Positions 30,908 to 64,000 of a stretch of DNA of 64,000 nucleotides are shown piece by piece. A program made the position numbers and the translations under genes. The notes below the pieces were generated by a model. It saw only the letters and a program-made list of their open reading frames with translations, was not told where the DNA came from and did no database searches. Each line of letters opens with the position of its first letter. The first letter of the stretch is position 1. Origin of the DNA: a virus (Duplodnaviria > Heunggongvirae > Uroviricota > Caudoviricetes); IMG/VR virus record IMGVR_UViG_2565956624_000008. One strand, given 5' to 3'.

Positions 30908-31951
30908 GTGAAAGCCGTAATTACTCCCTTTGTACAGAAAGAGCTTGGCGTCGCCACATTCAAAGTGGATCAGGAAGTCAGAAAGCTGGTGGAGGCTGGC
31001 CGTAAATTTATTATGGAGCCGGTGCCGCGTGAGTTAATCGAGCACATGGACGACGGCCTCGTTGTTTCCGAGCAGACTATGGCAACAAATGAGGCGTTGC
31101 AGCCGTTTTTTAACAGCGATGAACTGTTTCGCCGTATTGGTGGAATTGACGCGCTGGTGGCGTGGTTGCGTAGGAAAGAGGGTCAATGCCAGGCCGCAGA
31201 TCGTAGTTGGTGTGACAACCATATTGTCCACGCTGAACGAGACAATAGCGCGGTGTTGTTGTGCTGGCATCACGATAACCATTACCGGATGCGTGGTTTT
31301 AATGAGCTGAAAGAAACGCTGCATAATAATCGCGTTAACTGGATACTGGATGTCGCCCGTCAGGAAATGGGGCTTTCAGATGGTCATGATTTAAGTATTC
31401 AGGAACTGTGCTGGTGGGCTTTCATGCGCAACATGATGCACCTGATGCCGGAAGAAGTTTGCCGTATATCAATAAATAAGATGAAAGCCGCAACGCAGGA
31501 TAGCGGACCTCTGAAAGAGGCGGATATTCGCCCGTATGACGATCGCGCTACAGCATATGTTCAGATGATGGAAGAACGCGCCGCGCCGATGCGTGCAAAA
31601 GTATGCCCTGTGGATGTTGACTCCGACCCTGGCATGGCGCATTTCAAAATACCAAAACTGCAATCGCTAAAATTACCTGAGTACATGGACTTTGTTGCTT
31701 CCCGTCCATGCTGTGGGTGTGGAGCGGCGGGAGCTGGCGCTCACATTACGCCTTATATCGTTCGTCATAGTCGATTATGCGCGCATGACATTTACGCAAT
31801 TCCTTTGTGCCAGTCATGCCAGCGTGATATTGAGCGTGACCGCGATAATTGGGAGAAGACGCACGGTAGGCTGGCGATGCATCAACGATTGTTCTTTGAT
31901 TACGCGCTTGGAGTCGGCGCTATCACAAGTCACTCGTCGAGCGTTAGATAA
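30908..31951 (+). CDS. hypothetical protein, 347 aa (post-doc region)
   Basis: Long ORF, Cys/His-rich C-terminal part. Confidence 0.55.
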
Positions 31952-55480: not shown

Positions 55481-58457
55481 TATTTAGCTCCTTTGCCACA
55501 CCTAATAACAGTTCCAGCAATCCGTCACCATTCATCAGTGATGCGGCAGCGGCCTCTTTGTCATGATACAACTGAAGAGCCATAGAGAATACTTCCGTTG
55601 CTGACGTTTTGGAAATAGTCGGTGATTTCTGCCGAATTTTCCCGGTGTTACTTACTGAGGCTGGCGGGTATACCTTCGCCATATAAATATTACTCAATCG
55701 AGATCTGAAGCACCATTCAGGCTTGCCACGCCCACCGATATTGACGAAAGATGGCTTATCCCCTTCAACATTGGCCTTCAGGAATGACCGGGCTTTCTCT
55801 AACAAACCAGGGTTACTGTACTCAAGATGATGACCCAGCTCGTGCCACAGTGCACTTGCATTTTCATCGTTCAAATTGACAGCAACAACACCATTAAGAT
55901 TTGCATATGCCCTTCCCTGGTGGTGAACTACCTTTGATAAGGTCGATATTTTCCCGCCGGTCAGGCGATAAATATCAGCAAGTTCCTTGCGCAGGTCTAT
56001 CCCACCATTCTGTCCAGCGCGGACTTCTTCCACTTCTTCTGTGATAAAAGAGTCGGCCCACTCAAGAGCTTTTTCTTCAGATACGGATGAGTTTGCGATC
56101 GCACTGTTCATGGCAGATAACACTTTCTCGTGGACCGAACCCATACTTCGCTGATTCATTTGCCAGCGTATCTGCGGGTTATATGAGAATCGCTTAAGTA
56201 GTTGGTCAAGCTGCTCAAGTTCTTCTTCACTGACATACTTTTTAGCCTCACCAATAATGCCAGGGAGAATATTGCCGTTAGGATTAAACGCTCGCGAAAG
56301 GAAGAGTTTCAGCGCCCCCATGCCCTCCGATGCTTCAATATCACCAATAACCCGGTTAACAATGGCCGCACTCTTCGGATTAGCATCCGCCAACGCTCTG
56401 GCTACGATTTGCAGGGACGATACGACCTCACGCTGCATATCAGTCCTGATCTCATCAATAAACTCTGGCGTTATGCCGTGCTCTTTAAGAATATCCCGGC
56501 CTTCCGCCGTTACCCCATCGATATCACCGACATGTTTATTAACACGACTTTGCAATGCCTTAAATGCCTTCAGAATTCCACGGGCATCATCCGCTTTACT
56601 AACGGCCTTCCTGAATGCTGGCAAGAAGTCTGAGTTAACCTCATTTTGTTGATCGGCCCACTGAATGGAGGCTTCTTTCATCTCGTCCAGAGTCAGATCA
56701 CCCAACGCGGTATGGTCTGTGAATATGAGCGACAACCTCTGAACCATTTCTGCCAATGGTGATGCCGAATGCGCCGCGCTAAGGAATGCTTTCACCCTGG
56801 TTGGGCGAATGGAAAACCAGTCAATAGCTGGTGGCATATCTCCGTTTTTTATCGCCTGCGCTATCTCGTCAAAGCCATCGCGCCCAAGGGAGGATGCGTG
56901 ATTTAACAAGCCGCGAAGTAACGAATTGCTGATACCGAATAATCGGCACCATTTTTTCACGTCGGCAACAGGCATTCGAACAAAATGCGCAAGCACTTGT
57001 ACAAGCTGTTCATCCTGGGGATCTGTGCGGGAAAGCAGCCTGATCAGATGAATAATGTCTTTGATGCCGGATGCCCGATGTAATAGCAAACTGGTATACG
57101 GAGCAACACCGTTGTAACTACCGCCGGAAACGGACTCGAAAAGACCGCCGGATATCCCTTGCATGCCTTCGTTTTCCAGTTCCTGAGACACCTGGCGAAG
57201 GATATCCTGTAACGACACATCGCCGCCGCCAAACATATCCCCCAGCGCCTGGCCCTGGTGCTGTAACTCATCATTGATACGTTGAGCCATCAACTTAAAG
57301 GCGGTGGCCATACGCTTCGCGCTACGGTTATTCGCGACGATGAACAACGCGAGTGCTTTCACTTCCGGGGCCGTTTCGCTGAACATATCCCCCTGAGCAA
57401 TAACATCGGTAATATGCTGGCCTGACTCCTTCGATTGCCTTACCAGGTCTACCGCATCTTTCAATGCCGCCAGCGCCTTTTTATCGAGGCTATCCGCTGT
57501 CTCAATGCCATCAACAATAGTTGTCACAGCCTGCTTGTGCGCTTCTCCTGATAAAGCCTGCATCTGGACAAAATCATTGGCTGCCGCATTAAGCGCCGTC
57601 AGAACATTACGCATATCCGGATCAGGTTCTTCTGCAACCATCCTTACCAGGCGCGCATCCTTATATGCCTTGGCAAAGATCGCGTTTTGTATACGGTCTA
57701 CAAGTTGCCGTGTTGGTCGCCCATCTTCAGTTACAAGGCCAGCCGCCTGTGTGGCACCAACTTGCGTCATAAATCCGCGAATAAACGCGTCATTACTGCG
57801 GCTAAGCAGATCTCCACTTTCTGACGGGTTAAACAACGCCATCATCGCCGGTGTTATGCTGTCGGCATCAACAAAAGCCTTTTCACTGGCTGCCATTTCC
57901 TGGAGATCAGAAATATTTGAGTCCTTGGCAAACTGAACACGGTCAACCTTCGTTAACCGGCGGCGCACCAGTACCGGAGCCGTCATTGATTCAACCTTTT
58001 CAGGCCGTATGCCGAATTCGGTCGCATGTTCAATCAGGTACTCCCGATACCGATCCGCATTACCGTCCTGATAGGCTTTAATGATCCCCATGGTCCGCCC
58101 ATTACCTGACTCAACGGCATTGTCCTCACCAATTATTGGCGCACCATGGCTGGATAAACCGGAATCAGTAAGCTGAGCTGGCCGCAAATCTTTGGATATC
58201 TGGTTAACCTGAAGAAGGCTGGATGCGCGGGTCCGGTCGCGCGGCTGAAGTTCCTGGGGATAGTCAGGATTAATTTTCCCATCCAGAGTATTGGATACCA
58301 AAAGAGCTGAGGCATCGACGATATCAAACGCTGTTTTTACCTCGTCTCCCTTCGCTGTCACCACATACGAAACCCGCCCATAATCGGGCAGGTTCTTTAG
58401 CAGCTCGATCAGCGTTTCTATGCTGGTGGCCATTACCACCTGATCGCTTAAGCTCAT
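55470..58457 (-). CDS. large virion-associated protein with HExxH zincin-like motif, 995 aa (P1 DdrB-like by position)
   Basis: WHELGHHLE motif near C-terminus; position downstream of darA. Confidence 0.65.
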   Translation of the reverse strand: MSLSDQVVMATSIETLIELLKNLPDYGRVSYVVTAKGDEVKTAFDIVDASALLVSNTLDGKINPDYPQELQPRDRTRASSLLQVNQISKDLRPAQLTDSGLSSHGAPIIGEDNAVESGNGRTMGIIKAYQDGNADRYREYLIEHATEFGIRPEKVESMTAPVLVRRRLTKVDRVQFAKDSNISDLQEMAASEKAFVDADSITPAMMALFNPSESGDLLSRSNDAFIRGFMTQVGATQAAGLVTEDGRPTRQLVDRIQNAIFAKAYKDARLVRMVAEEPDPDMRNVLTALNAAANDFVQMQALSGEAHKQAVTTIVDGIETADSLDKKALAALKDAVDLVRQSKESGQHITDVIAQGDMFSETAPEVKALALFIVANNRSAKRMATAFKLMAQRINDELQHQGQALGDMFGGGDVSLQDILRQVSQELENEGMQGISGGLFESVSGGSYNGVAPYTSLLLHRASGIKDIIHLIRLLSRTDPQDEQLVQVLAHFVRMPVADVKKWCRLFGISNSLLRGLLNHASSLGRDGFDEIAQAIKNGDMPPAIDWFSIRPTRVKAFLSAAHSASPLAEMVQRLSLIFTDHTALGDLTLDEMKEASIQWADQQNEVNSDFLPAFRKAVSKADDARGILKAFKALQSRVNKHVGDIDGVTAEGRDILKEHGITPEFIDEIRTDMQREVVSSLQIVARALADANPKSAAIVNRVIGDIEASEGMGALKLFLSRAFNPNGNILPGIIGEAKKYVSEEELEQLDQLLKRFSYNPQIRWQMNQRSMGSVHEKVLSAMNSAIANSSVSEEKALEWADSFITEEVEEVRAGQNGGIDLRKELADIYRLTGGKISTLSKVVHHQGRAYANLNGVVAVNLNDENASALWHELGHHLEYSNPGLLEKARSFLKANVEGDKPSFVNIGGRGKPEWCFRSRLSNIYMAKVYPPASVSNTGKIRQKSPTISKTSATEVFSMALQLYHDKEAAAASLMNGDGLLELLLGVAKELNNAD

Positions 58458-58469
58458 CCCTGTTACGCC

Positions 58470-58835
58470 TTATGCTGCCTCTTTAATGTTGGCGGCTATC
58501 CATGCCGCAGTGTGCTGTTTAACCTGGTCCAGGTCGATGTATGTGCCAACATATTGACTCAAATCCTGCAAGGTACCGATAAATGCATCGGTGCTCTGAT
58601 CGACGAATTTATCAGCCAGGAAATCAGCAACCAGTTTTGGCACACCATCATGTTCCGAAGGTTGTTTTTCCTCGCCACTACCACCGCCGGACGCGCCGTA
58701 CCCCATCTGTTGCATGATCTGGTCAATTTCATCGCTGATATCCAGCAACTCCATGCCACTCGCGGTCGCCGCTTTGGACATCAGAGCATCCAACTTATCG
58801 CTGAGATCCATTAACTCAATAGCTGATAGTGTCAT
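58470..58835 (-). CDS. small acidic protein, 121 aa (P1 DdrA-like by position)
   Basis: Operon context. Confidence 0.55.
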   Translation of the reverse strand: MTLSAIELMDLSDKLDALMSKAATASGMELLDISDEIDQIMQQMGYGASGGGSGEEKQPSEHDGVPKLVADFLADKFVDQSTDAFIGTLQDLSQYVGTYIDLDQVKQHTAAWIAANIKEAA

Positions 58836-60751
58836 ACCGCTACCCCCGCTTTCTGGATTGCTACCAACAGATCAGCCAGGTGGCGAGCTGCGCCGTTAAC
58901 CAGCTCTTCGTTTTCCTCAAAACGTCCGGCAGCCTGAAGGGCTGCAATCGCTTCCCGGACATTGCCCCGGGCGTTACGGATCTCCGCCATGTCAGTGCTT
59001 TGTATATCCATCACGTTATTGAGATATTCAATGGCTTTATTAGCCTCTGCATCTGCTTCGCTAACCGTTTCATCAGGCTGTGCCGGGGCCGGTTCTGGCT
59101 GAGTAATCTCACCGACTTCGGCCTGCAATGCATTGATCATGCTCTGCACCATTTTCTCGGTGCCAGCGCCACCCGGAAACGCAATATTGGGGAAAGTTTT
59201 TTGAAACTGAGTTTTCAGCATTACGCGGAACTCGTCTGGTGAGCTGGTGGCCTGCTCCAGAGCTTTTTGTGCATATTTGCCAAATGGACCATTAGTAAGT
59301 GTCTTCGCCAGGAAGTCGAAAGAATCCTCGCGAGGCAATAACTTCAGGTCGTACTCGCTCATTTGCTGATCAGAAAGCGGGGTATCGTAAGTAGCAATGC
59401 CGTAGCGTGCATATTCATAATACGGGTCACCTTCATCAGGGCGTGGCAGAATTGCTTTGTTACCTTCAGGTATTGCGCCAGGGGCCGCCGGACGCATTTG
59501 CAGGGCATATCGATATGCACCTATAGAGACTTCTGGTTCAGGCGAAGAGCTACCGGTATCCTCCGCTGGTTCAGGTTCGACGTTTTCCGGTTTATGTTCT
59601 TCTGGTTGGACCAGGTATTCCGATACATTACCCGCTTTATAGGCTTTAAACAGCTTGCCGATCGCATCTGCCATGTCCACACCCTGTATGGATTTAGCCT
59701 TGATCATGTACACGCTGCCATCCGAATCGGTTAACTGGATATACCCTTCACCGTCCTCAATGAATTGCTTCATTGATGCACCATTACTGAGCGTCACTTC
59801 CCCGTTCATATGCATACGATTTTTGATACTTGCAAGGCGATCCGTCATCGCGCGAGAGTGTCCACCTGTCATCCCCGCAGGAGCAATGGTTTCGCGCCCA
59901 CCAGTGCGATTGAGCTGATCAATCTCCGTCTGCAAACGCTCATTCTCTTCATAAAGAGAATCCGCTTCCGATGCAACAGCGTTAATTTTCTGCTCCAGAT
60001 CTACCTTCTGCCCTTCTACCGCTGCCACCTGATCCGCGAGGTCGCTCATGGCATCCTCTTTCTGGTCACTGTCAGCCTGTAGTTGGGTTATTTCATCAAC
60101 CAGGGCTTTTTTCTTCTTCTGCGCACGCTGGAATTTTGCCGAGTTTTTCTCTGCAAGGTTGGCAAGTTTCATGGTGACCTGCGCCAGCGTCATATCACGT
60201 CCACTCATCGGAGCAACGGTGTGAGTAACGTCTTTTTTATTCAGTAAGAACTGGAAAGCAACCAGCGTATCGCTATTGGTGATCCGGTTTTCCGCTGTCG
60301 GGCTATGAAACAGAATGCTGATAGTCTGACCATCACTGAGCGGAATAATGGCTGGCAGGACCGGCAGCCCGTTAACGTTACGTGCCCGGCCAATTTCAGC
60401 GCCGCCGATCGCGCGCGCGCCGCTCTGGGCCACATCCCCCGTTTTATCACTCCCCGCAGAGATTCCGGTACCATTCAGCTTCTGGTTCAATGCCCGGACA
60501 AATGCCTGCATGGTCCGGTGTAACTGCAAACGAGTAGAACTAATCGCCTCCAGTAAATCCGTAGCACACCAGTGGATCGGCGTGTCATAGAAGAACGTAG
60601 CCTCGATTTCCTCCAGGGTGTTGGATTCCGTCATCAGATAGCGGTCCTCACCGGCCATTAATGCGCGATATTCATCATCAGTCACTGGCGGGGGAAGCAC
60701 GTCAAGCCCAGGCTTGATCGTCACCCCTTTATTGATATTGAACTGTTCCAT
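58832..60751 (-). CDS. darA: DarA-like antirestriction/capsid internal protein, 639 aa
   Basis: Size and operon position match P1 DarA. Confidence 0.75.
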   Translation of the reverse strand: MEQFNINKGVTIKPGLDVLPPPVTDDEYRALMAGEDRYLMTESNTLEEIEATFFYDTPIHWCATDLLEAISSTRLQLHRTMQAFVRALNQKLNGTGISAGSDKTGDVAQSGARAIGGAEIGRARNVNGLPVLPAIIPLSDGQTISILFHSPTAENRITNSDTLVAFQFLLNKKDVTHTVAPMSGRDMTLAQVTMKLANLAEKNSAKFQRAQKKKKALVDEITQLQADSDQKEDAMSDLADQVAAVEGQKVDLEQKINAVASEADSLYEENERLQTEIDQLNRTGGRETIAPAGMTGGHSRAMTDRLASIKNRMHMNGEVTLSNGASMKQFIEDGEGYIQLTDSDGSVYMIKAKSIQGVDMADAIGKLFKAYKAGNVSEYLVQPEEHKPENVEPEPAEDTGSSSPEPEVSIGAYRYALQMRPAAPGAIPEGNKAILPRPDEGDPYYEYARYGIATYDTPLSDQQMSEYDLKLLPREDSFDFLAKTLTNGPFGKYAQKALEQATSSPDEFRVMLKTQFQKTFPNIAFPGGAGTEKMVQSMINALQAEVGEITQPEPAPAQPDETVSEADAEANKAIEYLNNVMDIQSTDMAEIRNARGNVREAIAALQAAGRFEENEELVNGAARHLADLLVAIQKAGVAV

Positions 60752-60752
60752 G

Positions 60753-61364
60753 TTAATTTCCTGCTTTCAGTTGCTTAAGACGGCGTTTGAGTTCGCCATT
60801 TCGGGCCTTTTCGTTATTGAGTCGGCCTGTCTCCTTATCCAGCTTCGCCCGCAAATCAGTGATCTGCTGTTGATTGAAAGACACCGAGTTCTGCGCTGAT
60901 TTATAAGCGGCAACCACCTGAGCATTCCGCTGTTTTGCCTCTTGCAGGCGCTGAAAGTTGGATTTTACTGCCGGTTTCTTGTCTACCGGATTGGCAACAC
61001 GTTTCGCTTTGGCGATCAGTGATTTCTGGAATTTTGCGGAGTTTTTGCGGGCCGCTTGCCCCATGACGGTACCAAGCGTCTTGATATCCGGCGATTGAGC
61101 GTTAGGAATAGCTTTTCCATTCAGCCTCACAGACGATATATCGCCAGTATCGTTTACCTGTATGGCAAGAATTTGTCCGTCGTTAAGAACCAGCTTTGCG
61201 GTTTTAACTTTAACGCCATCTTTCGTTGTTGCGCGGTTGCTGGAGTCAACCTCAATTACCGTAACACTGGTTTTATTGATCGCCGCGATAAGGGATTTCA
61301 GCCCCTTTTCATTAACCTGGTCAAAATCGACCGTTGCATACTTATTTTTCGTCATCTGACACAT
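60753..61364 (-). CDS. basic protein, 203 aa (P1 Hdf-like by position)
   Basis: Operon context upstream of darA. Confidence 0.55.
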   Translation of the reverse strand: MCQMTKNKYATVDFDQVNEKGLKSLIAAINKTSVTVIEVDSSNRATTKDGVKVKTAKLVLNDGQILAIQVNDTGDISSVRLNGKAIPNAQSPDIKTLGTVMGQAARKNSAKFQKSLIAKAKRVANPVDKKPAVKSNFQRLQEAKQRNAQVVAAYKSAQNSVSFNQQQITDLRAKLDKETGRLNNEKARNGELKRRLKQLKAGN

Positions 61365-61785
61365 CCTGTGCGAGATTTATTACGTAACTTCTGCGGATTT
61401 GCTGAGTAACAGGGAAAATCCGATACAACGGGTTAATGAACGAGTCGCCATGCGTAACCATGACGTTGAAATGCCACAGCCGTTCTCCTTTACCCATATA
61501 TTCAGTGGGTATGTACAACCATTCACTGTTTTCGCCCTGTTCAGCCGACGTCAGACAACGTTGTTCGCCTTCAATCACTGTCGTCGGCTTCTGAACATCG
61601 CGGATCCAATATCTGACCGTTGCGCCGCGCAAAAACGGGAATTTAGACCGGTATTTGAACGGCACCCGGATGAAACCCGGTTTAATTTCCACATCACCAA
61701 GTTCTAAATGCGTGATGTCCTTGCGTTTTAGCAAATAGCGATCGGCTAAGGCTAACGCAAGAACGCATACACCCCAGCCAATCAT
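61342..61785 (-). CDS. lydB: putative antiholin, 147 aa
   Basis: Immediately downstream of holin-like gene, as in P1. Confidence 0.6.
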   Translation of the reverse strand: MIGWGVCVLALALADRYLLKRKDITHLELGDVEIKPGFIRVPFKYRSKFPFLRGATVRYWIRDVQKPTTVIEGEQRCLTSAEQGENSEWLYIPTEYMGKGERLWHFNVMVTHGDSFINPLYRIFPVTQQIRRSYVINLAQDVSDDEK

Positions 61786-62111
61786 TTCCCGCCTCCCTTT
61801 TTCACCAAACTTGTAAGAACATTCAGAATGCTATCGATATTCACTCGTTTCATCCCTGAAATCACCTCATGACCGTTATTGCTGGCTATCGTTACCATTA
61901 AGTACGTAATTGATAACTCCCAGCCCTCGTGTTGCCCCAATAGGTACGCCACCGCGCCAGCTGTCACTGCAACAAAGATCTCCGTAACCAATCCCAACAA
62001 ATTGCCAGACTGGCGACCGTCTCGGACATCCATCAGGAACGTGCCTATCCCACCAATTACTGAAAGCAGGAGCGCAATAGCAACTGGAGCTAATTCCTGT
62101 GTGTCAAGCAC
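61782..62111 (-). CDS. lydA: putative holin, 109 aa
   Basis: Multiple TM helices; charged C-terminus KKGGGK. Confidence 0.65.
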   Translation of the reverse strand: MLDTQELAPVAIALLLSVIGGIGTFLMDVRDGRQSGNLLGLVTEIFVAVTAGAVAYLLGQHEGWELSITYLMVTIASNNGHEVISGMKRVNIDSILNVLTSLVKKGGGK

Positions 62112-62185
62112 AAGTTCCCTCCTACGTTGTCAGGAGGTAATGGTATGCAAAGTAACTTCTCAACCGGTTATGTTGCATAAGAGAC

Positions 62186-62449
62186 TTACCTATTCAACCG
62201 ACTTTTGGAACCTTCAATAATAAGCCTGCTATTGGCGCTGAAAATAAGAACCATGCAGCTCTGAAGGCTTTCATTCATATCCTTATATTCCGCGAGATAC
62301 ATGCCAATAAAGCCAGCAAGTACGGCGGAAATACATTCGGCCAGCAATTTCTTGCATGAAGACTCGTAACGGTTTTCACATAGCCCACTCAAATACGAAT
62401 ACACCCCACCAAGAAGGGATAACATCACGATATGTACATAAAATGTCAT
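62186..62449 (-). CDS. small membrane protein, 87 aa
   Basis: Two hydrophobic helices; AT-rich. Confidence 0.45.
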   Translation of the reverse strand: MTFYVHIVMLSLLGGVYSYLSGLCENRYESSCKKLLAECISAVLAGFIGMYLAEYKDMNESLQSCMVLIFSANSRLIIEGSKSRLNR

Positions 62450-62576
62450 TTTTTACCTATACAACAGTAAGTTGAACAACATCTGAGAACGGTATGCACT
62501 TTGTGATTTCCACACACACTGGTTTTGTTAATTAAAACCTGTAGCTTGCAATAAATAACGATAGTGGGCAGAAAAT

Positions 62577-62790
62577 ATGCTAATAGGCTATGTACGCATA
62601 TAGACAAATGAACAAAACACAGCTATGCAGTGAAAAGCACTTGAAAGCGCAGGATGTGAGCTAATTTTTGCGAATAAGGCGAGCAGCAAAAAGGCTGGGC
62701 ACCCTGGGTTAAAAAAGGTTCTGCGTATGCTTTCCAGAGGTGATACCCTAGTCTCGGGCTAGGGACAACATTTCGAGGACAGTTTTCATT
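62577..62790 (+). pseudogene. remnant of a serine-recombinase DNA invertase gene (N-terminal about 70 codons with in-frame stops, then truncated)
   Basis: Translates as MLIGYVRI* TNEQNTAMQ* KALESAGCELIF...PGLKKVLRMLSRGDTLV, the conserved invertase N-terminus interrupted by nonsense codons. Confidence 0.7.
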
Positions 62791-62884
62791 AGCGGTCAGC
62801 AGGCGCTAGATACATCGAATTGATGTGCCGCGCGATAAATGTACCTATTCTATCAAGATAAATTACACCGACGCGGCATTAGAA

Positions 62885-63457
62885 TTACAGCTCAGATTGA
62901 GTTTGGCGCTTCTCTACAGGATGATAACGATAAATCGTCGATACACCGATATCGTAAATAATTGCCAACTGTTTCCTGCTGTAGCCATTTTCGATCAACC
63001 TCGCTATTTGCTCATGTTGTTCTTTTGTCAACTTCGGGCGACGTCCGCCAATGCGTCCCTGTTCGCGTGCAGCTGCCAGTCCGGCCAGTGTTCTCTCAAC
63101 AATTAATTCACGTTCCATTTCTGCTAAAGCCCCCATGACGTGAAAAAAGAAACGCCCCATGGGTGTTGATGTGTCAATACTGTCTGTCAGACTACGGAAA
63201 TTAACACCTTTTTCCCGCAACTCCTCTATAAGCGTGATAAGGTGTTTCATACTTCTGCCAAGCCTATCCAGCTTCCAGACAACCAGCGTATCTCCTTCTG
63301 ATAACGTTCTGAGCAGCTTTTTCAAGCCTGGTCTGGCTGACTTTGTTCCGCTTATTTTATCTTCAAAAATCAGTTCACATCCTGCGCAGTTCAGTGCATT
63401 TCTTTGTAAATCTGTGTTTTGGTCATTTGTTGACACACGAATGTAGCCAATTTGCAT
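62885..63457 (-). CDS. cin: Cin DNA invertase (serine recombinase), 190 aa
   Basis: MQIGYIRVSTNDQNTDLQRNAL ... VVWKLDRLGRSM ... C-terminal HTH; adjacent to invertible tail-fibre segment. Confidence 0.9.
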   Translation of the reverse strand: MQIGYIRVSTNDQNTDLQRNALNCAGCELIFEDKISGTKSARPGLKKLLRTLSEGDTLVVWKLDRLGRSMKHLITLIEELREKGVNFRSLTDSIDTSTPMGRFFFHVMGALAEMERELIVERTLAGLAAAREQGRIGGRRPKLTKEQHEQIARLIENGYSRKQLAIIYDIGVSTIYRYHPVEKRQTQSEL

Positions 63458-63519
63458 GAAAAACAACCTCTTTGTTTAGTTAAAAATACATCGTTGGTAT
63501 AGGTAGGGATTAAGACTAA

Positions 63520-64000
63520 AACGTTGGTTTGGGGGAAGGCTCAGCATTGCCTGTTGGCGTACCTGTTCCGTGGCCCTCAGCCACACCTCCAACGGGGTGG
63601 CTGAAATGCAATGGTGCAGCATTTTCTTCTGAAATGTATCCCAAACTGGCAAAAGCCTACCCCACCAATAAATTACCGGATTTACGGGGAGAATTTATTC
63701 GCGGCTGGGATGATGGGCGCGGGGTGGATGCGGGACGTGCTTTATTGAGCATTCAGACAGGAATGCTGGAAAAGCACCGACATATTGTTGTAGCCAATGA
63801 TGGTTACGACACAAAAGATGAATGGGAGCTGGCGACAATTTTCAAAAAAACATACACACAAGGACGGGGACTTGATGCCGCAAATACAGGAGGGAGTCTG
63901 ATCCCATCACCGACACTTCATTCACGAGGGAGTATCGGTAATACTGGCGGGAGTGAAACCCGTCCACGAAATATCGCATTTAATTACATCGTAAGGGCGG
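63520..64000 (+). CDS. 5-prime end of an invertible tail-fibre variable cassette (Sv-prime-like), no own start codon, continues beyond window
   Basis: Open frame from 63520 encoding PVPWPSATPPTGWLKCNGAAFSSEMYPKLAKAYPT..., typical of Mu/P1 tail-fibre variable C-termini. Confidence 0.6.

What the first reader, a model, noticed from the sequence alone, without database searches (positions are those of the whole stretch)
62577..62884. Decayed second DNA-invertase gene lying tail-to-tail with cin
The plus strand encodes the conserved serine-invertase N-terminus but with in-frame stop codons and truncation after about 70 codons. An invertase pseudogene directly beside the functional cin suggests a past duplication or acquisition of another inversion system.
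Basis: seen in the sequence. Interest (0 to 1): 0.5.

Follow-up and report, generated by a model that had tools for sequence, protein, structure and literature searches.

The report
Dead cin stub beside imported invertase
This is a real but dead leftover of the phage's original DNA-flipping gene (cin), stranded when a different flipping module (Min type, apparently from a Mu-like transposable phage) replaced it; the same leftover sits in plasmid p15B, so it is evolutionary debris, not a new working part.

Summary
Window 62577-62753 (+) encodes the first 59 codons of a serine DNA invertase (Pfam Resolvase 37.5 bits; 83% identical to P1 Cin, E=1e-34). TAG replaces the catalytic Ser9 codon, TGA sits at codon 19, and homology ends abruptly after codon 59.

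The interpretation needs inverting. The stub lies where cin lies in P1: next to lydC, in the same orientation, with about 90 bp of cin's own 5' flank. So it is the resident cin. The intact convergent gene (62885-63457) is not cin. It is 74% identical to Cin and 96% identical to the invertase of chromosomal BcepMu-like transposable prophages, and it matches the Min type of plasmid p15B.

The rest of the flagged interval holds two further relics:
- 62755-62814 (-): the decayed 3' end of a tail-fibre cassette.
- 62821-62884: the terminal 64 bp of a BcepMu-like phage, starting at its 5'-TG end.

The arrangement occurs in about 160 P1-like plasmids. Coordinate arithmetic on the P1 RefSeq annotation places it in p15B too. 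I found no orphan crossover site and no sign of retained function. The stub is already known and ordinary. The phage-end scar is a modest new clue to where the Min module came from.

The parts
62186..62449 (-). lydC (holin homologue), used as the synteny anchor: in P1, cin starts just beyond lydC on the opposite strand
   Evidence: 87-aa ORF; annotated LydC in the matching phage record; the lydC-cin order in P1 is shown.
62484..62576 (+). Relic of the cin 5' regulatory region. The predicted P1cin -35 is intact (62507-62512, TTTCCA). The -10 is mutated TAAAAT>TAAAAC (62533-62538). The RBS is mutated GAG>GGG (62566-62568). The P2cin region is not conserved.
   Evidence: DNA alignment to P1; feature-by-feature mapping; P1 promoter annotation, which is predicted only; no sigma-70-like site passes the consensus scan.
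62577..62753 (+). psi-cin: codons 1-59 of the resident cin. It has 19 substitutions over 177 nt relative to P1 cin, with stops at 62601-62603 (Ser9>TAG) and 62631-62633 (Arg19>TGA).
62595..62666 (.). Decayed copy of the cin recombinational enhancer (sis), 62/72 identical to P1's. All 10 differences fall in its first 45 nt.
   Evidence: using the enhancer coordinates in the P1 annotation.
62755..62814 (-). Decayed 3' end of a Min-type tail-fibre cassette (motif ...ETRPRNIAFNYIVRAA*). The window copy keeps CCT CGA AAT (P-R-N). Its distal part was lost in a deletion of about 130 bp that also removed cin codons 60 to about 102.
   Evidence: Local alignments against cassette 3' ends give z=4.7 for the window copy and up to 7.2 for the pEc-050 copy, with 0/300 shuffles reaching those scores. 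The MAFFT alignment is collinear. The less-deleted pEc-050 homologue is shown.
62815..62820 (.). Six bases (TCGAAT) abutting the phage end. They may be one copy of a 6-bp target-site duplication. This is inferred only.
   Evidence: Complete prophages of this family have 6-bp duplications. The second copy is absent here.
62821..62884 (-). Terminal 64 bp of a BcepMu-like transposable phage. It starts at its 5'-TG terminus (TGATGTGCCGCGCGATAAATGTACC...) and contains two GATAAAT-type repeats.
   Evidence: Chromosomal prophages in different host genes share sequence only from this TG inward. blastn homology to the prophage begins at 62820. Prophage ends and target duplications were defined.
62885..63457 (-).
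   Evidence: Pfam hits; 74% identical to P1 Cin; 96% identical to the prophage invertase; exact match to UniRef Q05517_ECOLX; pJIE250-3 is 99.8% nt identical across 62450-63540, and its invertase is reported as 98.5% aa identical to p15B Min (PMC6906374).
63506..63531 (.). Functional crossover (mix-type) site, core AAACCAACGTTT at 63519-63530. It is the left border of the invertible tail-fibre region and the only such core in the 64-kb window.
   Evidence: A plasmid identical across 62450-63540 has five such cores in 3+2 orientation.

Best explanation
The interval is a stack of three non-functional scars left when a P1-like plasmid-prophage swapped its single-segment Cin/C inversion system for a multi-cassette Min-type system.

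(1) psi-cin is the first 59 codons of the resident cin plus its 5' flank, still in cin's native place beside lydC. Nonsense codons kill it, one of them at the catalytic serine. Its 3' half and cixL are gone.
(2) Next comes the decayed last ~60 nt of a tail-fibre cassette, on the opposite strand.
(3) Then comes the last 64 bp of a BcepMu-like (Mu-type) transposable phage, followed directly by that phage's final gene, a Min-type invertase, its crossover site and its tail-fibre cassettes.

Shown: the identity of each piece, the sharp boundaries, and the population-wide fixation of the lesions.

Inferred history: a BcepMu-like phage transposed into a tail-fibre cassette of the P1-like ancestor. 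Recombination between the related tail-fibre genes then removed the phage body. A later deletion removed the redundant cin 3' half, cixL and the old cassettes. In the pEc-050 lineage that deletion junction lies in a short microhomology at the cassette stop and cin nt ~305. The window lineage then lost about 130 bp more.

The stub itself does nothing today. At most an 8-codon ORF remains, behind a damaged promoter and RBS.
For: - Stub identity and lesions.
- Native position, orientation and 5' flank shared with P1. P1 homology ends at 62753.
- The stub is closer to Cin (83%) than to its neighbour (63%) or to Gin (~61%).
- The neighbour is 74% identical to Cin and 96% identical to the BcepMu-like prophage invertase.
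- The prophage is a transposable phage: rve transposase, AAA_22 MuB-like ATPase, Gam, Mor, Portal_Mu. Its transposase is 68% identical to BcepMu's. It is bounded by TGATG...TAATCA with 6-bp target duplications at two different chromosomal sites.
- Homology to the prophage starts exactly at that terminus in the window.
- Tail-fibre cassette relic.
- The pEc-050 lineage keeps cin to nt ~307 and the same relic and phage end, but has different lesions (Ser9 intact; 2-nt and 9-nt deletions).
- The region is Min-type with several crossover sites.
- p15B has the same layout. The P1 annotation maps p15B nt 7147-7408 to the cin 5' region and nt 6463-6533 to the enhancer, which implies a 135-nt spacer, as in the window.
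- No constraint on the enhancer copy: 10/72 differences inside it against 9/105 outside. The -10 and RBS are mutated. There is no Rfam hit.
Against: - The order of events, and whether transposition hit the P1-like plasmid itself or some other tail-fibre gene, cannot be read from the sequence.
- No intermediate (a P1-like plasmid carrying a whole BcepMu-like prophage) was found.
- The nearest chromosomal copies of the invertase module are only ~90-92% identical at the nucleotide level, so the true donor is unsampled.
- The cassette-relic assignment rests on ~50-60 nt at ~70% identity. It is significant against shuffles, but the motif was identified after scanning several targets.
- Non-function of the stub is inferred from sequence, not measured.
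Confidence: 0.85

Rival explanations
1. The stub arose by local (inverted) duplication of the neighbouring invertase gene and then decayed.
For: The two invertase-like sequences lie side by side in opposite orientation.
Against: The stub is only 63% identical to the neighbour but 83% identical to P1 Cin. Its upstream 90 bp is homologous to P1's cin 5' flank, not to the neighbour's. A foreign phage end and a tail-fibre relic separate the two genes.
Confidence: 0.02
2. The stub is kept because it still works in cis: as a second Fis-dependent recombinational enhancer for Min, as a promoter giving antisense RNA into the convergent min gene, or as part of lydC's regulatory region.
For: The junction has persisted in two lineages that differ by ~20% across the relics. 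The 3' part of the enhancer copy (CTTGAAAGCGCAGGATGTGAGCTAATT) is identical in P1 and the window, and differs at one position in pEc-050. The -35 of P1cin is intact. Positions 62450-62576 must also hold whatever drives the divergent lydC gene.
Against: The enhancer copy has more substitutions (10/72) than the rest of the stub (9/105). pEc-050 has a 2-nt deletion between the two conserved blocks, which would change their spacing. The -10 lost its final T and the RBS is mutated. No promoter-like site passes the scan. min carries its own enhancer region. The window lineage tolerated a further ~130-bp deletion.
Confidence: 0.07
3. The [cassette relic + phage end + min + cassettes] block was not created by transposition into the P1-like plasmid. 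It was copied from a chromosome where a BcepMu-like prophage sat inside another prophage's tail-fibre gene, through one illegitimate and one homologous crossover.
For: The anatomy is the same as in the best explanation. The junction with cin in pEc-050 looks like an illegitimate join at a microhomology. Many E. coli prophages carry such cassettes and invertases.
Against: No chromosomal locus with the 66-72-nt relic next to a phage end was found in 5,426 E. coli genomes or in a pattern scan of 185,579 species-representative genomes. It needs a double crossover with a chromosome. It is not excluded.
Confidence: 0.25
4. The frame is actually intact, and the stops are assembly or sequencing errors.
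For: None. One related phage record (ON470617.2) does have a probable 1-nt error or mutation, but it lies in the neighbouring invertase gene.
Against: The same stops occur in >150 independent plasmid assemblies. Homology to any invertase ends at codon 59.
Confidence: 0.01

Closest known systems
Min inversion region of plasmid p15B (GenBank X62121; Iida et al. 1990, Sandmeier et al. 1990/1992)
   Same: The layout is the same: lydA-lydC, a ~260-bp stretch 89% identical to the P1 cin 5' region, a ~135-nt spacer, then a convergent min gene with its own enhancer and a multi-site invertible tail-fibre region. This is deduced from the cross-references in the P1 RefSeq annotation, which match the window's numbers. 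The window's invertase exactly matches UniRef Q05517_ECOLX, and a 99.8%-identical plasmid's invertase is reported as 98.5% identical to Min (PMC6906374).
   Different: The p15B sequence and the primary papers could not be opened here, so nucleotide identity was not measured. My recollection that those authors already called this a truncated or pseudo cin is unverified. The plasmid that stands in for the window beyond its end has five exact crossover cores, whereas I recall six sites described for p15B.
cin / C-segment system of phage P1 (NC_005856)
   Same: The stub has the same position and orientation beside lydC and a homologous 5' flank. It is 89-90% nt and 83% aa identical over codons 1-59.
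   Different: P1 cin is intact (186 aa), ends in cixL and serves one 4.2-kb C segment. Here codons 60-186 and cixL are gone, the catalytic serine codon is a stop, and inversion is run by a different enzyme transcribed the other way.
BcepMu-like transposable phages (Burkholderia phage BcepMu/phiE255; Escherichia phage PhiKM; E. coli prophages in yccM and yehQ)
   Same: The invertase is 96% identical, and the crossover site, the first cassette and the terminal 64 bp up to the 5'-TG are homologous. In these prophages the invertase is the last gene, 64-78 bp from the end.
   Different: The window holds only this end fragment. It has no transposase, no second end and no testable target duplication. 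Nucleotide identity to sampled prophages is only ~82-92%. In phage Mu itself (from memory) gin is followed by com/mom before the right end.
Other truncated cin genes in P1-like plasmids (pSvP1, pTZ20_1P; plasmid of strain AR437)
   Same: An N-terminal cin stub is left beside the lysis genes after the tail-fibre/host-range module was rearranged (PMC6906374).
   Different: Those truncations come from IS26/IS-mediated events or from a different replacement module. AR437 has its own nonsense codon (Leu17>TAG) and a different downstream gene.

Membership tests
Serine recombinase catalytic domain (Pfam PF00239 Resolvase) | Profile match above the curated threshold | tested here: met
   37.5 bits against a cutoff of 23.3, E=3.2e-9, profile positions 2-68 of 145. 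This shows descent, not activity.
Serine recombinase catalytic domain (Pfam PF00239 Resolvase) | Catalytic serine (Ser9 in Cin/Gin numbering) present | tested here: not met
   TCA>TAG at 62601-62603. The position aligns with the S9A residue of Gin structure 3UJ3.
Serine recombinase catalytic domain (Pfam PF00239 Resolvase) | Complete catalytic domain plus C-terminal HTH DNA-binding domain | tested here: not met
   Homology stops at codon 59. No invertase signal in any frame of the following 66 nt.
cin of P1 (as its orthologous relic) | Closest to P1 Cin among Din invertases | tested here: met
   83% to Cin, 63% to the Min-type neighbour, ~61% to Gin. Pin and Hin were not compared directly.
cin of P1 (as its orthologous relic) | Native locus: next to lydC, same strand as in P1, homologous 5' flank | tested here: met
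cin of P1 (as its orthologous relic) | cixL crossover site at the 3' end of the gene | tested here: not met
   The 3' half is deleted. The only Din-type core in the window is at 63519-63530. Relaxed matches near the stub are at chance level.
cin of P1 (as its orthologous relic) | Functional recombinational enhancer in codons 7-30 | not testable with these tools
   Sequence copy is 62/72 identical, with no excess conservation. Fis binding and enhancer activity need an experiment.
Min system of p15B (the arrangement as a whole) | Min-type invertase, transcribed convergently with a cin-like stub at the p15B spacing | tested here: met
   Coordinate arithmetic on the P1 annotation gives the same 135-nt spacer and the same 31570-3183x homology block. 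This is indirect, because X62121 itself was not available.
Min system of p15B (the arrangement as a whole) | Invertase protein essentially identical to Min | tested here: inconclusive
   Chain of evidence only: pJIE250-3 is 99.8% nt identical to the window locus, and its invertase is reported as 98.5% aa identical to Min (PMC6906374). The window protein exactly matches Q05517_ECOLX.
Min system of p15B (the arrangement as a whole) | Several crossover sites bounding multiple tail-fibre cassettes | tested here: met
   Five exact cores in 3+2 orientation in plasmid p50579417_1, which is identical to the window over 62450-63540. Only the first site lies inside the window.
BcepMu-like transposable phage (end fragment) | Homology begins exactly at the element terminus (5'-TG), as defined by independent insertions | tested here: met
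BcepMu-like transposable phage (end fragment) | Flanking 6-bp target-site duplication | not testable with these tools
   Only one end is present in the window. Duplications were seen for two complete chromosomal prophages.
BcepMu-like transposable phage (end fragment) | Transposase/MuB-like genes and a second end (a complete element) | tested here: not met
   Absent from the locus. P1 tail-fibre gene S follows the cassettes. No P1-like plasmid with a whole prophage was found.

The most novel reading that the evidence does not exclude
The Min multi-cassette host-range switch of p15B and of roughly a third of the P1-like phage-plasmid hits was captured from a BcepMu-like transposable phage that transposed into a tail-fibre cassette of a Cin-bearing ancestor. 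The 64-bp phage terminus, the ~60-nt cassette relic and psi-cin would then form a readable three-layer scar of that event. I could not find this origin stated in the searchable literature.
Probability: 0.5. Interest if true: 0.4.

Novelty: already known. Interest (0 to 1): 0.25.

Why it matters
For annotation: in this common class of P1-like phage-plasmids the intact invertase should be called min-type, not cin, and the upstream stub should be flagged as a cin pseudogene. RefSeq leaves it unannotated in most copies.

For evolution: the locus records a host-range module moving between two unrelated temperate-phage lifestyles, a transposable Mu-type phage and a plasmid-prophage. It also shows the lydC-proximal edge of cin as a recurrent breakpoint, with at least three independent cin stubs.

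It does not reveal a new mechanism or a second working inversion system.

Tried and rejected
- Duplication of the neighbour: rejected on identity.
- Orphan cix/mix site near the stub: none found. The only core is at 63519-63530, and 2-mismatch matches are at chance level. One of them, at 62743, sits on the homology break. I considered a quasi-cix inversion and dropped it, because the pEc-050 junction is better explained by a plain deletion.
- The 66-nt filler as further decayed cin: no DNA similarity (z=0.5) and no Pfam signal in any frame.
- The filler as host DNA: no other context in E. coli genomes or phages. A degenerate 19-base pattern scan of species-representative genomes gave two chance hits.
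- The filler (+ strand) as the start of a U'/tfa gene: 21/23 nt to P1 U', but similarity stops after 8 codons, no other tfa matches, and it covers the same bases as the better-supported cassette match.
- Promoter scan and Rfam: nothing.
- Primary p15B and P1 genome papers: not held. Text searches for a described pseudo-cin or a BcepMu link found nothing relevant.
- Search for an intermediate plasmid with a whole BcepMu-like prophage: none in P1-like replicons.

Full report
**What the window is.** The region is a P1-like phage-plasmid. On the minus strand lie darA, hdf, lydB, lydA and lydC (62186-62449), then the flagged interval, then an intact 190-aa invertase at 62885-63457. The 441 bases around the finding are 100% identical to Escherichia phage vB_EcoM-813R1. 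The 1.09 kb spanning the stub, the invertase and the crossover site is 100% identical to many ~96-kb E. coli plasmids.

**Checking the observation.** Frame 1 from 62577 reads MLIGYVRI*TNEQNTAMQ*KALESAGCELIFANKASSKKAGHPGLKKVLRMLSRGDTLVSG*.
- With stops masked, it matches P1 Cin 49/59 (E=1e-34) and Mu Gin at about 61% (E=3e-16).
- It passes Pfam's Resolvase threshold on its own (37.5 bits against 23.3).
- Codon by codon against P1 cin there are 19 substitutions in 177 nt. These include Ser9 TCA>TAG (62601), which is the catalytic serine, and Arg19 CGA>TGA (62631).
- DNA homology to P1 runs from about 62484 to 62753 and stops abruptly at codon 59.
The relic is 59 codons long, not about 70, and the last 131 nt of the flagged interval is something else.
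- The lesions are not sequencing errors. 161 PLSDB plasmids and 172 complete E. coli genomes carry the same sequence at 98-100% identity. The most divergent copy examined keeps both stops.

**Which gene is the original.** In P1, cin sits on the plus strand immediately after lydC and is preceded by its predicted promoters. The stub has that same position and orientation. Its 5' flank (62484-62576) is homologous to P1's.
- The stub is 83% identical to Cin but only 63% identical to its neighbour, so it is not a duplicate of the neighbour.
- The neighbour is only 74% identical to P1 Cin.
- Plasmid pJIE250-3 is 99.8% identical to the window across this locus (hit H39). Its invertase was reported as 98.5% identical to Min of p15B and as lying in reverse orientation relative to P1 cin (PMC6906374).
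- The window protein exactly matches UniRef Q05517_ECOLX.
- A plasmid identical to the window over 62450-63540 carries five exact AAACCAACGTTT crossover cores, three in one orientation and two in the other, at the borders of short tail-fibre cassettes. That is a Min-type multi-segment region, not P1's single C segment.
- The stub is therefore the resident cin, and the intact gene is an incoming min-type invertase.

**Link to p15B.** The P1 RefSeq annotation cross-references p15B (X62121). P1 31570-31832, the cin 5' region, is "89 pct identical (1 gap)" to p15B nt 7147-7408. The cin enhancer matches p15B nt 6463-6533.
- The window matches P1 over 31570-31836 at 89.9% with one gap.
- If min nt 25-95 are p15B 6463-6533, min ends at about nt 7011. 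That leaves a 135-nt spacer before the cin-like block, which is the same as in the window.
- The arrangement was therefore already in a 1992 sequence and was noted by the P1 annotators.
- I recall that the p15B authors described a truncated cin-like pseudogene. Those papers are not held here, so this recollection is unverified.

**The rest of the interval: a phage end.** The 131-nt spacer has no phage match other than the two near-identical records. In E. coli chromosomes its last ~60 nt recurs, at 81-84% identity, just downstream of a near-identical invertase. In each case it lies next to a different truncated host gene: yccM, yehQ, the rcsC region, or an SDR gene.
- Aligning these copies shows that they share sequence only from TGATGCGCCGCGCGATAAA inward.
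- Two complete prophages were examined. Each encodes an rve-type transposase, an AAA_22 (MuB-like) ATPase, Gam, Mor and a Mu-type portal.
- Each is bounded by 5'-TGATG...TAATCA-3'. Each is flanked by a 6-bp target duplication: GGTCGT in yccM and ATTAAA in yehQ.
- The transposase is 68% identical to those of Burkholderia phages BcepMu and phiE255, and 93-98% identical to those of Escherichia phage PhiKM and Klebsiella phage KP12.
- The divergent early and late operons also fit the BcepMu layout as I recall it.
- The window's invertase is 96% identical to the prophage invertase, and blastn homology to the prophage begins at window 62820.
- So 62821-62884 is the terminal 64 bp of such a phage. 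This sequence is functional in the phage and functionless here, which gives the direction of transfer.

**The rest of the interval: a tail-fibre relic.** The remaining 66 nt (62755-62820) shows no cin similarity (z=0.5) and no invertase signal in any frame.
- A diverged plasmid lineage (pEc-050-T0_3) helps. It has the same phage end and a homologous 72-nt filler, but its psi-cin runs on to cin nt ~307. Its lesions are different: Ser9 is intact, and there are 2-nt and 9-nt deletions. The window lineage has lost about 130 bp internally.
- The reverse complement of the filler, in both lineages, aligns with the conserved 3' end of Min-type tail-fibre cassettes (...ETRPRNIAFNYIVRAA*). The scores are z=4.7 for the window and up to 7.2 for pEc-050, with 0/300 shuffles reaching them. 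The MAFFT alignment is collinear, and the window keeps the P-R-N codons.
- In pEc-050 the cassette relic runs to its stop and joins antisense cin at nt ~305 within a short microhomology.
- A competing match of the plus strand to the start of P1 U' was judged to be chance.

**History (inferred).**
- A BcepMu-like phage end came to lie inside a tail-fibre cassette.
- The phage's invertase, crossover sites and cassettes were joined to the P1-type S gene. P1 homology resumes only in S.
- The redundant cin 3' half, cixL and the old cassettes were deleted.
- Whether the phage transposed into the plasmid itself, or the block was copied from a chromosome, cannot be decided. No intermediate or donor locus was found. 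BcepMu-like phages do occur inserted in other plasmids.
- Between the window and pEc-050 the relics are 79-84% identical, but the invertase and crossover site are 99% identical. The junction is therefore old, and the invertase has since been exchanged between lineages.

**Function.** Nothing suggests that the stub works.
- The predicted P1cin -10 has lost its final T (TAAAAT>TAAAAC), the RBS is GAG>GGG, and P2cin is not conserved.
- No promoter-like site passes the consensus scan, and there is no Rfam match.
- The enhancer copy (62595-62666) is 62/72 identical to P1's. It carries more substitutions (10/72) than the rest of the stub (9/105), so it shows no sign of constraint.
- pEc-050 has an indel between its two conserved blocks.
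- There is no orphan crossover site.
- A residual cis role cannot be excluded without experiments. I give it about 7%.

**Verdict.** The finding is a real pseudogene and is correctly spotted. It is the original cin, not a second acquired invertase or a duplicate. It is common, and by strong indirect evidence it is the stub present in p15B, so I rate it already known and of low interest. The adjacent 64-bp BcepMu-like terminus and the tail-fibre relic are a modest and possibly unreported clue to the origin of the Min module.

Noticed in passing
window 62821-62884: The terminal 64 bp of a BcepMu-like transposable phage, starting at its 5'-TG end, lies directly downstream of the invertase stop codon inside a P1-like genome.
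   Followed up: yes
window 62755-62814 (minus strand): Decayed 3' end of a Min-type tail-fibre cassette (ETRPRNIAFNYIVRAA motif, P-R-N codons intact), wedged between the phage end and psi-cin.
   Followed up: yes
L003 (plasmid pEc-050-T0_3) 2188-2625 versus window 62577-63540: The relics (psi-cin, cassette relic, phage end) are 79-84% identical between the two lineages, but the invertase and crossover site are 99% identical. The discontinuity falls at the invertase stop codon, implying recent exchange of the invertase between old lineages.
   Followed up: partly
L014 (E. coli AR437 IncY plasmid NZ_CP029103.1) about 1500-2230: A third, independent cin stub (Leu17>TAG plus other lesions) is followed by a different module: a glycine-rich-domain protein on the opposite strand. 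The lydC-proximal part of cin appears to be a recurrent breakpoint.
   Followed up: partly
L001 (phage vB_EcoM-813R1, ON470617.2) 6436-7007, equivalent to window 62885-63457: That record has a 1-nt deletion in an A-run (window 63143 equivalent) and a divergent 5' end, so its invertase is annotated as two CDSs, 'Hin1' and 'Hin2'. The window's copy is intact. The window also differs from this record further left (2,632 mismatches in an ungapped comparison of 58000-64000, probably largely a register shift from an indel in or near darA).
   Followed up: partly
L008 1047-38147 and L010 105-37650 (E. coli chromosomes): Complete ~37-kb BcepMu-like prophages inserted in yccM and yehQ, with 6-bp target duplications. 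The invertase is their terminal gene, 64-78 bp from the end. Both ends carry GAGATAAAT(G/T)ACA-type repeats that look like transposase-binding sites.
   Followed up: partly
L009 (plasmid p50579417_1) 3320-3781: RefSeq leaves the stub unannotated, and the locus_tag numbering skips RS01640 between lydC and the invertase. In pEc-050 the equivalent stub is annotated as a frameshifted partial recombinase pseudogene.
   Followed up: no
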